Shown here piece after piece: positions 20,436 through 27,032 of a stretch of DNA of 64,000 nt. The DNA is taken from the NCBI RefSeq assembly GCF_055900595.2, contig NZ_CM148325.1; one strand, given 5' to 3'. Every line of letters starts with the position of its first letter. The first letter of the stretch is position 1. The notes below the pieces were generated by a model. The model was not told the origin of the DNA and did not search any database. It was given only the letters and a program-made list of their open reading frames with translations. A program made the translations under genes and the position numbers.

Positions 20436-21821
<1,386 letters not shown>

Positions 21822-22189: not shown

Positions 22190-23440
22190 TTACATATTCT
22201 TGATGATCGCGTCACCAAACTCTGAACATTTCAGCAGTTTAGCGCCTTCCATCAGACGCTCGAAGTCATAGGTTACGGTCTTCGCGTTAATCGCGCCTTC
22301 CATACCTTTAACAATCAGATCTGCGGCTTCAGTCCAGCCCATATGGCGTAACATCATCTCAGCGGAGAGGATGATAGAGCCTGGGTTAACTTTGTCCTGA
22401 CCAGCATACTTCGGCGCAGTACCGTGGGTGGCTTCAAACAGCGCGCATTCGTCACCGATGTTTGCGCCTGGGGCGATACCGATACCGCCAACCTGCGCTG
22501 CCAGAGCATCAGAAATGTAGTCACCGTTGAGGTTCATACAGGCGATAACGTCGTATTCAGCCGGACGCAGCAGGATCTGTTGCAGGAATGCGTCAGCAAT
22601 CACGTCTTTAATAACGATCTCTTTGCCGGTGTTCGGGTTTTTGACTTTCAGCCACGGGCCGCCGTCGATCAGTTCACCGCCAAACTCTTCACGCGCCAGC
22701 TGGTAACCCCAGTCTTTAAACGCGCCTTCGGTGAACTTCATGATGTTACCTTTGTGCACCAGGGTCACAGAGTCACGGTCGTTAGCAATTGCGTATTCGA
22801 TCGCGGCACGAACCAGACGTTTGGTGCCCTCTTCAGAACACGGCTTAATACCGATACCGCAATGTTCCGGGAAGCGAATTTTCTTCACACCCATCTCTTC
22901 ACGCAGGAATTTAATCACTTTCTCAGCGTCGGCAGAGTCAGCTTTCCATTCGATACCCGCATAAATATCTTCCGAGTTTTCACGGAAGATAACCATATCG
23001 GTCAGTTCAGGATGTTTAACCGGGCTTGGGGTGCCCTGATAGTAACGTACCGGACGCAGGCAGATGTAGAGATCCAGTTCCTGGCGCAGAGCTACGTTGA
23101 GAGAACGAATACCGCCGCCAACCGGAGTGGTCAGAGGGCCTTTAATGGCAACGCGATATTCACGAATCAGATCAAGGGTTTCAGCAGGCAGCCAGACGTC
23201 CTGACCATAAACCTGTGTGGATTTTTCACCGGTGTAAATTTCCATCCAGGAGATTTTACGCTCGCCTTTATAGGCTTTCTCGACTGCAGCGTCGACCACT
23301 TTCAGCATGGCTGGGGTTACATCTACACCGATTCCATCACCTTCAATGTAAGGGATAATCGGATTTTCAGGAACGTTGAGTTTGCCGTTTTGCAGGGTGA
23401 TCTTCTTGCCTTGTGCCGGAACAACTACTTTACTTTCCAT
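22190..23440 (-). CDS. icd: Isocitrate dehydrogenase (NADP)
   Basis: 416 aa, [45 protein letters not shown]...; ends ...FGDAIIKNM followed by a terminator hairpin. Confidence 0.97.
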
Positions 23441-23641
23441 TCACCTCTCCTTCGAGCGCTACTGGTTTGCTCGTCTGCCACCACGTTGCATATGCGTTTG
23501 CGTCCTGCGATACGGATGCGTTAGAGCAATTTTTTGTTAATGATTTGTAATTGGCTTGTCAATACTACCCTATTGTTTGCCGTCATGAAAGATGCGCGTT
23601 ATTAGGCTATAATGCGGCAATTCATAATCTCTGAAAATACC

Positions 23642-23758
23642 ATGCAAAAAACTTCTTTTAGACCAAAGACAGTATTTTACCAGCCTTCAAATAAAATATT
23701 AAATATCAATTATTTACACCAGATTTTAAGCAATAACAAAACCACCAGAGATAACTAA
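23642..23758 (+). other. Short ORF (38 aa) that looks like a displaced rluE 5' end
   Basis: MQKTSFRPKTVFYQ... starts at the usual distance from the divergent icd promoter, after a tataat box; taccatg...cttcttttaga recurs at the rluE start near 26391..26438. Confidence 0.4.
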
Positions 23759-23890
23759 CAGGGTGCTATTTGGTCAAAATTTGACATTACTCGATTCAGC
23801 GACTAACTCACTTTGAGCACTATTGGGAAAATTATCAAAAGTCATGGTTGAAGCGACAAGCAACGAGTAAATTATGGCATCCACCCTTTT

Positions 23891-23971
23891 TGAGGTTCAC
23901 ATGAAACGCTTTGCACTGATAGCTGTGACACTCGTTGCCTTTACTGGTTCTGCTGCAACCGAAGAAATCAA
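23891..23971 (+). CDS. 26-codon ORF encoding a signal-peptide-like peptide
   Basis: gagg RBS 6 nt upstream; MKRFALIAVTLVAFTGSAATEEINFK*; too short to be a mature secreted protein, possibly truncated. Confidence 0.3.
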
Positions 23972-24014
23972 CTTCAAGTAACAGAAACACCATATAACAA
24001 TGGAGTGTTGAAAA

Positions 24015-24464
24015 ATGGATACTACCGAAGAACGCAATGGAACATATTTCTACAGAGGACACCCGAACCTGTCCAAAATAGAACTACTCAACGTCATATT
24101 CCTTGAAGAATTCTGTAAGGAATTGGGGATTGATTCGGTATCAGGTGCAGCAATCTTATCTGGTCAACCGTGGCTGGGTACAAGAGCGAAGCCGCAAGGG
24201 GCAACCCTGGGAACAAGTGTTGTCTCAAAGTATGCGCGTATACTGATGAGAGATGCACGCATGCCTTTTGGTATTTCTGTTCATACACCAGTGGGTGTAA
24301 GGATGCAGAAATCTAATAAGCTTGCTGCAATTATCGCTCGTTGGGTCCCGTGGATTGGTTGGGCTTCACTGTCGATGAGTCTTTACAGGGTTTCGACTCG
24401 TACCCAGGAAAAATACAATCTGATTGCCAAACCTCAAGACCGTATTAAGTGGACTTCCTTCTAA
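24015..24464 (+). CDS. Hypothetical 149-aa protein, first of an overlapping two-gene module
   Basis: ggag RBS about 9 nt upstream; in-frame stop immediately upstream; MDTTEERNGTYFYRGHPNLSKIELLNVIFLEEF... with a hydrophobic stretch LAAIIARWVPWIGWASLSMSLY. Confidence 0.5.
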   Translation: MDTTEERNGTYFYRGHPNLSKIELLNVIFLEEFCKELGIDSVSGAAILSGQPWLGTRAKPQGATLGTSVVSKYARILMRDARMPFGISVHTPVGVRMQKSNKLAAIIARWVPWIGWASLSMSLYRVSTRTQEKYNLIAKPQDRIKWTSF

Positions 24465-24799
24465 TGGCGACAACAATCACAGACGAAGTTTTAGCACTGT
24501 TCCGTGATGAGATTCCAGGTTATCAGGATGACCACGGGAAGGAAATTCCGTTAGAACTGGACTCTGATTTGTTCGACTATCCACGAGATGATTTAGAGGA
24601 CGCTATACGGAAATACAAAGAGAGGTTTGGGATTAACCTGGATAATCTGGACTGGTCTTTTTACCTTCCGTGGGAGTCTGCACCATTGCTTCAACGATGG
24701 TTCAAACTCAAGCGGGAAGAGGTAGAAACAACACGTTTACCGTTAACTGTACGGATGTTTGCAGAATCAGCAGAAGCGGGAAAATGGCTGTATCAGTAG
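24449..24799 (+). CDS. Hypothetical acidic 116-aa protein, overlaps the upstream gene by 16 bp
   Basis: MDFLLMATTITDEVLALFRDEIPGYQDDHGKEIPLELDSDLFDYPRDDLEDAIRKYKERFG...; acidic, overlapping partner typical of an immunity/antitoxin-like gene; possibly DUF1493-like (from memory). Confidence 0.5.
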   Translation: MDFLLMATTITDEVLALFRDEIPGYQDDHGKEIPLELDSDLFDYPRDDLEDAIRKYKERFGINLDNLDWSFYLPWESAPLLQRWFKLKREEVETTRLPLTVRMFAESAEAGKWLYQ

Positions 24800-24891: not shown

Positions 24892-26161
<1,270 letters not shown>

Positions 26162-26381
26162 CCACTACAAAACACTATTTTTCATACCAGTATTTATTCA
26201 ATTCATCAATGTAAAATGTGTTCATTGGGCCATATTTATCACCATGCAGCCACACAACCGCTGCTCACTAACCCAGGTATTGATGAAACCGCGCTGAAGA
26301 GCCTGAACCCTGAACCTCTAACGAGTACCTTTAAAGTCCAATGCAATCCGACACTGTGCTACCCTCTGCGTATAGCTCTAT

Positions 26382-27032
26382 TTGGAATTTACCATGAAAT
26401 ACTTTAGCGATTCTAAATCTTCTTTTAGAAAAAAACAGGTTAGTCGACTAAACTCGCAACACTCAACTAAGCGAAAACCTGAAAACCAGCCCACGCGTGT
26501 GATCCTGTTCAATAAACCCTACGATGTTCTTCCGCAGTTCACCGATGAAGCCGGACGCAAAACATTAAAAGAATTCATCCCGGTTCAGGGAGTGTATGCG
26601 GCAGGTCGTCTCGACCGCGACAGCGAAGGGTTACTGGTGCTGACCAATAACGGCGCTTTGCAGGCGCGTTTAACCCAGCCGGGTAAACGTACCGGGAAAA
26701 TCTATTATGTACAGGTAGAAGGTATTCCCACGGAAGACGCCCTTGAAGCGTTGCGCAATGGCGTAACCTTAAATGATGGCCCTACCCTGCCCGCAGGTGC
26801 GGAGATGGTTGAGGAGCCGGAATGGTTATGGCCCCGTAATCCGCCAATTCGTGAACGAAAAAGTATTCCCACCAGCTGGCTTAAGATCACCTTATATGAA
26901 GGACGTAATCGCCAGGTGCGCCGCATGACCGCCCATGTTGGTTTTCCCACGCTGCGACTGATTCGCTATGCGATGGGTGATTACTCTTTGGATAATCTTG
27001 CCAATGGCGAATGGCGAGAAGCGACAGATTAA
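26382..27032 (+). CDS. rluE: 23S rRNA pseudouridine synthase RluE
   Basis: 216 aa; ...[35 protein letters not shown]...[17 protein letters not shown]...; start could instead be the ATG at 26394. Confidence 0.9.

What the first reader, a model, noticed from the sequence alone, without database searches (positions are those of the whole stretch)
23891..24799. Small three-ORF module: signal-peptide-like sORF, 149-aa protein and overlapping acidic 116-aa protein
The 149-aa and 116-aa ORFs overlap by 16 bp and each has a plausible RBS, which is the layout of toxin/immunity or toxin/antitoxin pairs and of orphan polymorphic-toxin C-terminal modules. The upstream 26-codon ORF has a strong RBS and encodes only a signal-peptide-like sequence, so it may be the stump of a larger secreted protein. 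The module lies in inserted DNA beside an IS element. I do not recognise either protein.
Basis: inference. Interest (0 to 1): 0.6.

Follow-up and report, generated by a model that had tools for sequence, protein, structure and literature searches.

The report
Orphan secreted-toxin and immunity gene pair
This small E. coli islet most likely encodes an uncharacterised antibacterial toxin, of a kind that related bacteria load onto their type VI secretion "spear", together with its protective immunity protein, which looks like an acyl carrier protein; the kind of system is well known, but this toxin family and its mode of killing have not been studied.

Summary
The two larger ORFs are real, conserved genes. 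One is a 149-aa basic protein (pI 10) of the STM2901/DUF8209 family. The other is an acidic DUF1493 protein (pI 4.5).

They are best read as a toxin/immunity pair of the polymorphic-toxin, type VI secretion (T6SS) kind:
- In 26 of 49 Enterobacterales species loci, a full-length T6SS tube gene (hcp) ends about 10-17 bp upstream of the toxin gene. DUF1493 follows directly in 42 of 49.
- In other bacteria, including likely Bacteroidota, the same domain forms the extreme C-terminus of Rhs proteins. All 10 proteins tested carry the Rhs-associated core domain. DUF1493 genes again lie just downstream.
- The DUF1493 model has an acyl-carrier-protein fold but lacks the conserved carrier serine.
- The toxin matches no known fold. 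Its invariant GTSxxS and GRxxPxxGW motifs suggest an enzyme acting in the cytoplasm, but this is unproven.

The E. coli copy has no hcp. It lies on a 1.5-kb low-GC islet in the 5' end of rluE, and occurs in 374 of 5,426 complete genomes.

- The immunity gene probably starts at ATG 24464 (TAATG coupling), not GTG 24449.
- The IS3-family element is a later, separate insertion.
- The 26-codon signal-peptide-like ORF is not conserved and is probably not a gene.

The parts
24015..24464 (+). Putative toxin/effector gene, 149 aa, 16.8 kDa, pI 10.0. STM2901 family (NCBIfam NF045926), equivalent to Pfam DUF8209 (PF26636).
   Evidence: NF045926 scores 156 bits against a cutoff of 110. PGAP annotation. 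Homologues carry PF26636. hcp lies directly upstream in 26/49 species loci. The domain is C-terminal in Rhs proteins. Invariant S68 and S71, near-invariant T67, R109, P112, G115. Ka/Ks 0.05-0.10.
24464..24799 (+). Putative cognate immunity gene, DUF1493 (PF07377), 111 aa from ATG 24464, pI 4.5. No signal peptide or transmembrane segment is visible in the sequence. The maximal ORF starts at GTG 24449 (116 aa).
24002..24005 (+). GGAG ribosome-binding site, 9 nt before the toxin ATG
   Evidence: Read from the sequence.
24462..24466 (+). TAATG stop/start overlap, indicating translational coupling of toxin and immunity genes
   Evidence: Sequence and PGAP coordinates.
23901..23981 (+). 26-codon signal-peptide-like sORF, probably not a gene
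   Evidence: Not annotated by PGAP. Absent outside Escherichia. T-to-K change in the hydrophobic core in the AR_0067 and IAI39 alleles, 6- and 12-nt slippage indels, and a frameshift with stop loss in Escherichia sp. E1V33.
23663..24014 (+). Left arm of the islet: 352 bp of AT-rich non-coding DNA found only in Escherichia, with no hcp remnant
   Evidence: blastn and tblastn against 58 loci. GC 0.43.
23648..23662 (.). Left copy of the 14/15-bp direct repeat (AAAACTTCTTTTAGA) that flanks the islet. It lies in a 17-codon stump of the K-12-type rluE 5' end (23612-23662).
   Evidence: blastn against the K-12 rluE-icd region. Junction sequences.
26415..26429 (.). Right copy of the direct repeat (AAATCTTCTTTTAGA). 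The rluE start codon used in this strain (26394) lies inside the islet.
24912..26166 (+). IS3-family insertion sequence (1255 bp, 26-bp imperfect terminal inverted repeats, orfA/orfB with programmed frameshift). It was inserted later, 112 bp downstream of the immunity gene. AAAC target duplication at 24908-24911 and 26167-26170.
   Evidence: Comparison with the IS-free allele L059. PGAP annotation. Only 7 genomes carry it at this position.

Best explanation
The module is an hcp-less ('orphan') copy of a type VI secretion effector-immunity pair.

The 149-aa STM2901/DUF8209 protein is a small, basic antibacterial toxin. In related Enterobacterales it is encoded directly after an orphan hcp gene. 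It is therefore most likely carried as cargo inside the Hcp tube into neighbouring bacteria. In other phyla the same domain is delivered as the C-terminal warhead of Rhs proteins.

The downstream, translationally coupled DUF1493 protein is its cognate immunity protein. It is soluble, acidic and cytoplasmic, and has an acyl-carrier-protein fold without the carrier serine. It most likely neutralises the toxin by 1:1 binding.

Because the immunity protein is cytoplasmic, the toxin most likely acts in the cytoplasm or at the inner face of the inner membrane. The invariant GTSxxS loop and the GRxxPxxGW motif suggest an enzyme or a phosphate-ligand-binding site.

What is shown: family membership, hcp linkage in relatives, Rhs fusion, toxin-DUF1493 co-occurrence, the ACP-like fold, purifying selection, and prevalence in E. 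coli.

What is inferred: toxicity, neutralisation, Hcp-dependent export, the cytoplasmic site of action, and any activity in this particular strain.
For: - Family assignment: NF045926 156 bits, cutoff 110; DUF1493 E=1.7e-29.
- In Citrobacter, a T6SS_HCP gene, the DUF8209 gene and DUF1493 form a three-gene islet between housekeeping genes.
- Across 49 species loci, hcp lies directly upstream in 26, is partial in 3, and is within 6 kb in 8 more. DUF1493 lies directly downstream in 42.
- The profile search gave 380 relatives. In 28 of 28 long ones the domain is within 0-8 residues of the C-terminus.
- All 10 long relatives tested carry TIGR03696 Rhs_assc_core above its cutoff, upstream of the domain.
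- P0305 also has RHS/YD repeats.
- AFDB50 structural hits include 'RHS repeat-associated core domain' proteins.
- DUF1493 genes follow Rhs-fused homologues P0222, P0277 (two copies) and P0257. The other two examined are followed by small acidic ORFs that share a 'PEE..D.V.EP' helix motif.
- Size is 16.8 kDa; pI is 10.0 for the toxin and 4.5 for the partner.
- Toxin Ka/Ks is 0.05-0.10.
- In IAI39 the toxin gene is split by an IS while the immunity gene stays intact.
- 42 other E. coli genomes carry an hcp'-'DUF1493 relic in which the toxin is deleted.
Against: - No hcp gene or hcp remnant lies next to the module in this window or in any E. coli copy.
- I did not test whether these strains have a T6SS.
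- There is no experimental evidence of toxicity anywhere. I found no functional study of STM2901, DUF8209 or DUF1493.
- The toxin model is only moderately confident (pLDDT 65) and matches no solved fold, so the biochemical activity is a guess.
- Public annotations call some relatives 'membrane protein'. In 16 of 68 relatives the C-terminal helix reaches transmembrane-like hydrophobicity. That would fit a membrane-acting toxin, although such toxins normally have membrane-bound immunity proteins (my own knowledge of the field, not a tool result).
Confidence: 0.75

Rival explanations
1. In this E. coli lineage the pair is no longer a weapon. It survives as a defensive or selfish relic. The immunity gene would protect against DUF8209 toxins fired by Citrobacter, Enterobacter, Klebsiella and similar competitors. 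The toxin gene would be kept only because it is coupled to the immunity gene, or because it acts as an addiction module. This agrees with the best explanation on what the genes are but disagrees on what they do here.
For: - No hcp is adjacent in any Escherichia copy.
- Several independent IS insertions hit the locus. In IAI39 and M25631H the toxin is split while the immunity gene is intact.
- 42 genomes carry an hcp'-'DUF1493 relic.
Against: - The toxin ORF is full length, and the two coding regions together are 99 % or more identical, in about 370 of 374 carriers. One identical protein (WP_000381622.1) is shared by divergent alleles.
- The coding DNA (99.6 % identity) is better conserved than the module with its flanking non-coding DNA (98.5 %).
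- Hcp proteins encoded elsewhere in the genome could still carry the toxin.
Confidence: 0.3
2. It is a classical type II toxin-antitoxin (addiction or abortive-infection) module, unrelated to secretion. The antitoxin would be labile and the toxin would act only inside the producing cell.
For: - Two small, overlapping, co-transcribed genes encoding a basic and an acidic protein.
- Location on horizontally acquired DNA.
- Weak PHROG matches show that relatives occur in prophages.
Against: - The toxin domain is fused to Rhs carriers and linked to hcp, which is not expected of an intracellular TA toxin.
- The partner has no DNA-binding domain and has an ACP-like fold instead.
- No PADLOC defence model matches either protein.
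Confidence: 0.05
3. The pair is not a toxin system. It would be a small membrane-associated protein plus an ACP-like partner, with a physiological or phage-related role, as the 'phage membrane protein' annotations suggest.
For: - Automated names in AFDB such as 'membrane protein' and 'phage membrane protein'.
- A hydrophobic C-terminal helix.
- The ACP-like fold of the partner.
Against: - The carrier serine is not conserved in DUF1493 (by inspection).
- Placement at the C-terminus after the Rhs core, and hcp linkage, are hallmarks of toxins.
- The pair shows patchy, islet-like distribution.
Confidence: 0.07

Closest known systems
Hcp-cargo T6SS effector-immunity pairs (for example P. aeruginosa Tse2/Tsi2 and Tse4/Tsi4) and orphan hcp-effector-immunity islets of Enterobacterales
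   Same: - A small effector (16.8 kDa) encoded immediately after an hcp gene in most related species.
- The next gene is a small putative immunity gene.
- The islets sit between housekeeping genes.
- The immunity protein is cytoplasmic, as with Tse2/Tsi2 (own knowledge).
   Different: - No sequence or fold similarity to any characterised effector.
- The E. coli copy lacks the hcp gene.
- Hcp binding and secretion are untested.
Rhs / YD-repeat polymorphic toxins with variable C-terminal toxin domains and downstream immunity genes
   Same: - The DUF8209 domain occupies the extreme C-terminus after the Rhs-associated core (DPxGL end) in all 10 relatives tested.
- A DUF1493 gene follows.
   Different: - The window protein is a complete stand-alone protein with its own conserved N-terminus (MDTTEE...) and its own RBS.
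- It is neither an Rhs fragment nor a displaced orphan C-terminal tip.
Acyl/peptidyl carrier proteins (ACP-like fold), compared with the DUF1493 partner
   Different: - No significant sequence similarity to E. coli AcpP.
- The DSL serine that carries phosphopantetheine is replaced. The consensus is P-G-D-D-L, with D42 and D43 nearly invariant and position 41 mostly G or R.
- About 35 extra residues lie between helices II and IV.
Type II toxin-antitoxin modules
   Same: Two small overlapping genes encoding a basic and an acidic protein, on acquired DNA.
   Different: - The toxin gene comes first.
- The partner has no DNA-binding domain.
- The toxin domain is fused to secretion carriers elsewhere.

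Membership tests
NCBIfam NF045926 STM2901 family / Pfam PF26636 DUF8209 | Score above the curated cutoff over the full length of the model | tested here: met
   156 bits against a cutoff of 110, model positions 1-140 of 140. Homologues carry precomputed PF26636. The tool's Pfam library did not return PF26636 in a direct scan.
Pfam PF07377 DUF1493 | Significant full-length match to the family HMM | tested here: met
   E=1.7e-29, model positions 3-107 of 108.
Polymorphic toxin system (Rhs-type) | The toxin domain occurs at the extreme C-terminus of Rhs/YD-repeat carriers, after the Rhs-associated core | tested here: met
   28/28 long relatives have the domain 0-8 residues from the C-terminus. 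10/10 carry TIGR03696 above its cutoff. RHS repeats in P0305. This holds for relatives; the window protein itself is stand-alone.
Polymorphic toxin system (Rhs-type) | A cognate immunity gene lies immediately downstream and co-varies with the toxin domain | tested here: met
   DUF1493 lies downstream in 42/49 enterobacterial loci and in 3 of 5 Rhs-fused loci. The other 2 are followed by small acidic ORFs.
Polymorphic toxin system (Rhs-type) | The toxin inhibits growth and is neutralised specifically by the downstream protein | not testable with these tools
   Needs expression experiments. No published test was found.
T6SS Hcp-cargo effector | Genetic linkage to an hcp gene | tested here: inconclusive
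   Met in relatives: full hcp directly upstream in 26/49 loci, partial in 3. Not met at this locus: no hcp or remnant.
T6SS Hcp-cargo effector | Small enough to fit the Hcp lumen (the largest known Hcp1-delivered effector is 44.4 kDa) | tested here: met
   16.8 kDa. Size range of known Hcp cargoes as quoted in PMC8262886.
T6SS Hcp-cargo effector | A T6SS is present in the same genome, and export and Hcp binding depend on it | not tested
   The 64-kb window holds no hcp. I did not survey the rest of the genome, and secretion needs experiments.
Acyl carrier protein family (for the DUF1493 protein) | ACP-like helical-bundle fold | tested here: met
Acyl carrier protein family (for the DUF1493 protein) | A conserved serine (DSL motif) at the start of helix II for phosphopantetheine attachment | tested here: not met
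   The start of helix II reads P-(G/R)-D-D-L, with no conserved Ser (alignment A2; helix boundaries). The residue correspondence is by inspection, not a residue-level structural alignment. hhalign to AcpP was not significant.
Type II toxin-antitoxin module | An antitoxin with a DNA-binding or otherwise recognised antitoxin domain, and a toxin of a recognised TA family | tested here: not met
   No Pfam, NCBIfam or PADLOC match to TA or defence families. The partner has an ACP-like fold.

The most novel reading that the evidence does not exclude
The immunity protein is a molecular mimic of acyl carrier protein. It has an ACP fold in which the phosphopantetheine-bearing serine is replaced within a near-invariant acidic 'GDD' motif.

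This would imply that the DUF8209 toxin kills by binding or chemically modifying holo-ACP, or an ACP-dependent step of lipid synthesis. DUF1493 would protect the cell by acting as a decoy substrate in the toxin's active site.

This would be a new target class for interbacterial toxins and a new substrate-mimic mode of immunity.
Probability: 0.1. Interest if true: 0.75.

Novelty: new member of a known kind. Interest (0 to 1): 0.45.

Why it matters
It assigns a concrete, testable role to two widespread families of unknown function, STM2901/DUF8209 and DUF1493. The proposed role is an interbacterial toxin and its immunity protein.

These families are present in many Enterobacterales, in about 7 % of complete E. 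coli genomes, and as Rhs warheads in other bacteria, including likely Bacteroidota.

The toxin has no recognisable fold or known activity. The immunity protein has re-used the acyl-carrier-protein fold. Working out the mechanism could therefore reveal a new killing chemistry or a new cellular target.

For E. coli genomics, it explains a recurrent variable islet between icd and rluE.

Tried and rejected
- Foldseek against AFDB50 returned only family members and unrelated prefoldins.
- I looked for an hcp remnant upstream of the E. coli gene by tblastn at E up to 100 and found none.
- I looked for relatives of the sORF peptide in 58 related loci. Only Escherichia has it.
- hhalign of DUF1493 against E. 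coli AcpP was not significant. The ACP relationship therefore rests on the predicted fold only.
- Literature searches for DUF1493, STM2901, DUF8209, PF26636 and PF07377 found no functional study. I also checked the supplements of the 2026 Salmonella T6SS effector survey.
- Papers on orphan Hcp and Hcp cargo (PMC8262886, PMC3942780, PMC2907695) do not mention this family.
- The promoter/terminator scan gave nothing above the shuffled expectation.
- I considered a transmembrane pore-former reading. The Kyte-Doolittle 19-residue maximum is 1.24 for this protein and 1.46 for the family median. This is borderline and not decisive.

Full report
**Observation**

The window is E. coli chromosome. icd lies at 22190-23440 on the minus strand. 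rluE-nudJ-mnmA run from about 26394 on the plus strand. K-12 has 171 bp between rluE and icd. This window has about 2.9 kb there.

K-12 homology stops at 23662 and resumes at 26415. A 14/15-bp direct repeat (AAAACTTCTTTTAGA / AAATCTTCTTTTAGA) sits at the two junctions. The insert therefore lies inside the 5' end of the K-12-type rluE. A 17-codon stump of that gene remains at 23612-23662. The rluE start codon annotated in this strain (26394) lies within the insert.

The insert has lower GC than its flanks: 0.41-0.46 against 0.50-0.51.

It also contains an IS3-family element at 24912-26166, with 26-bp terminal inverted repeats and an AAAC target duplication. That IS is a later event. Only 7 complete genomes have it at this position, while 374 of 5,426 carry the two-gene module, 371 of them at full length.

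**What the two genes are**

The 149-aa protein is a full-length member of the NCBIfam 'STM2901 family' (156 bits, cutoff 110). Its homologues carry the recent Pfam family PF26636/DUF8209.

The second protein is DUF1493 (PF07377, E=1.7e-29).

RefSeq starts DUF1493 at ATG 24464, which overlaps the toxin's TAA stop by one base (TAATG). The GTG at 24449 gives the 116-aa, 16-bp-overlap reading. It has no Shine-Dalgarno sequence. The residues it would add are simply the other reading frame of the toxin's conserved C-terminal codons. Either way the genes are translationally coupled.

The first protein has pI 10.0 and 16.8 kDa. The second has pI 4.5.

The coding region is 99 % or more identical in 370 E. 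coli genomes. Toxin Ka/Ks against homologues in other genera is 0.05-0.10. Both are therefore real genes under purifying selection.

**Context in relatives: linkage to hcp**

In Citrobacter the homologous pair forms a three-gene islet, T6SS_HCP (160 aa)-DUF8209-DUF1493, between housekeeping genes.

A scan of one genome per species returned 49 loci, all in Enterobacterales. The results were:

| hcp relative to the toxin gene | Loci |
|---|---|
| Full-length hcp ending 10-17 bp upstream | 26 |
| Partial hcp directly upstream | 3 |
| hcp elsewhere within 6 kb | 8 |
| No hcp | 10 |
| Contig edge (too little upstream sequence) | 2 |

DUF1493 follows directly in 42 of the 49 loci.

Some hcp-less loci still show the last bases of hcp just before the toxin gene (L013, L021). 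The Escherichia copies show no trace of hcp.

Forty-two other E. coli genomes carry a relic in which an hcp 5' fragment abuts a DUF1493 3' fragment.

**Context in relatives: Rhs fusion**

A profile search of 1.84 billion representative proteins found 380 relatives.

- In all 28 relatives of 200 aa or more, the domain lies 0-8 residues from the C-terminus.
- All ten long relatives tested carry the TIGR03696 Rhs-associated core domain above its curated cutoff, just upstream of the domain.
- One of them (P0305) also has RHS/YD repeats.
- Foldseek against AFDB50 independently recovered proteins annotated 'RHS repeat-associated core domain' and one annotated 'Rhs' from Flavobacterium.

I examined five Rhs-fused loci. 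Three are followed by DUF1493 genes, one of them by two copies. The other two are followed by small acidic ORFs that share a helix motif with each other.

A domain that sits after the Rhs core, and is followed by a constant partner family, is the defining layout of a polymorphic toxin and its immunity protein. The stand-alone, hcp-linked form is the layout of an Hcp-cargo T6SS effector.

The enterobacterial proteins share a conserved N-terminus of their own (MDTTEE.NGTYFY). The E. coli gene is therefore a complete stand-alone effector gene and not a broken Rhs tip.

**Structure and mechanism**

The serine that carries phosphopantetheine at the start of helix II is not conserved. The family reads P-(G/R)-D-D-L there, with D42 and D43 nearly invariant (correspondence by inspection). 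hhalign to AcpP is not significant. DUF1493 therefore has an ACP-like fold but is not a carrier protein.

It has no signal peptide or membrane segment. From this I infer that neutralisation, and hence the toxin's action, takes place in the cytoplasm or at the inner face of the membrane.

The toxin model is weaker (pLDDT 65). Its least confident stretch (residues 50-71) contains the conserved motif. It has no meaningful match among solved structures or Pfam families.

Across the broad family:
- S68 and S71 are invariant.
- G50, T67, R109, P112 and G115 are conserved at 93 % or more.
- This gives two motifs: a 'GAT.GTS..SK' loop and 'GR..P..GW' at the start of a long C-terminal helix.

That helix is hydrophobic but mostly below the transmembrane threshold. 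The Kyte-Doolittle 19-residue maximum is 1.24 for this protein and 1.46 for the family median, and 16 of 68 members reach 1.6 or more.

My best guess is an enzyme or phosphate-ligand-binding toxin with a cytoplasmic target. A membrane-perturbing action is not excluded. A more speculative idea is that the ACP-like immunity protein mimics the toxin's substrate, so that ACP or ACP-dependent lipid synthesis would be the target (probability about 0.1).

**The sORF**

The 26-codon ORF (23901-23981) has a good GAGG site and looks like a Sec signal peptide. However:
- It exists only in Escherichia.
- In the AR_0067 and IAI39 alleles it carries Thr-to-Lys in the hydrophobic core.
- Its length varies by 6 or 12 nt through TCTGCA slippage.
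- In Escherichia sp. E1V33 it is frameshifted and loses its stop codon, while the toxin gene next to it stays intact.
- PGAP does not call it.

I treat it as a chance ORF in the islet's non-coding leader.

**State of the locus in E. coli**

Independent IS insertions have hit this locus several times:
- The IS3-family element downstream of the immunity gene in this window.
- An IS3-family element inside the toxin gene in IAI39, where the immunity gene is intact.
- The toxin gene also appears in two pieces beside an IS3-family transposase in M25631H (annotation).
- IS2 in CUWW06 and IS1 in Ecol_881.

Even so, about 370 of 374 copies are intact. I did not test whether carriers possess a T6SS or a compatible Hcp. 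It is therefore open whether the pair is deployed here or kept mainly for immunity (rival reading, about 0.3).

**Comparison with what is known, and novelty**

The system type is well known: Hcp-cargo effector-immunity pairs and Rhs C-terminal toxin-immunity pairs.

Both families are in databases only as 'unknown function'. I found no functional paper on them, and the source names in sequence databases are all 'hypothetical' or family names.

I rate it a new, uncharacterised member of a known kind.

**Scores**

- Interest: 0.45.
- Confidence that this is a polymorphic-toxin/T6SS-type toxin-immunity pair: 0.75.

Noticed in passing
window 23612-23662 and 26394-27032: The islet splits the K-12-type 5' end of rluE. 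A 17-codon stump (MRQFIISENTMQKTSFR) is left upstream. The rluE annotated in this strain starts inside the islet ([15 protein letters not shown]...), so RluE has a different N-terminus in islet-bearing strains.
   Followed up: partly
window 24980-25102 (+), inside the IS3-family element: Strong Rfam match to isrC Hfq-binding sRNA (RF01387, 145 bits, E=1.9e-36). It overlaps the 5' end of the IS orfA, so this 'sRNA family' seems to correspond to IS sequence.
   Followed up: no
window 20436-21812 (-), downstream of icd: A 458-aa ORF that RefSeq annotates from an internal start as a 455-aa 'hypothetical protein', with an apparent internal duplication (two similar halves). In the identical strain it is followed by a transposase pseudogene and trkG. 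This is probably a remnant of an element integrated at the icd 3' end, where K-12 carries e14.
   Followed up: no
L065 (E. coli E14, NZ_CP121149.1) 8789-9111: An hcp 5' fragment abuts a DUF1493 3' fragment, leaving a degraded hcp-toxin-immunity module with the toxin deleted. It lies beside a His-Xaa-Ser (hxsABCD) radical-SAM system on an integrative element. 42 E. coli genomes have such a diverged match, four sampled rows share this annotation, and only this locus was inspected.
   Followed up: partly
L060 (E. coli IAI39) 3271-5368; also hits H12, H13, H22: Repeated independent IS insertions (IS3-family, IS2, IS1) in or next to the toxin gene in different strains, with the immunity gene kept intact in IAI39. 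This could mean an insertion hot spot or selection for toxin loss.
   Followed up: partly
L040, L041 (Mangrovibacter), L023, L028: Some species carry arrays of several hcp / DUF8209-like / DUF1493 units and extra orphan DUF1493 copies within a few kb. This resembles the immunity-gene arrays seen at other effector loci.
   Followed up: no
L062 3574-3969 and L008 7537-7758: Two Rhs-DUF8209 proteins (P0278, P0305) are followed by small acidic ORFs instead of DUF1493. These ORFs share the motif VPDFRP....L..VY..GPEE..D.V.EP with each other. They may be a divergent ACP-like immunity family.
   Followed up: partly
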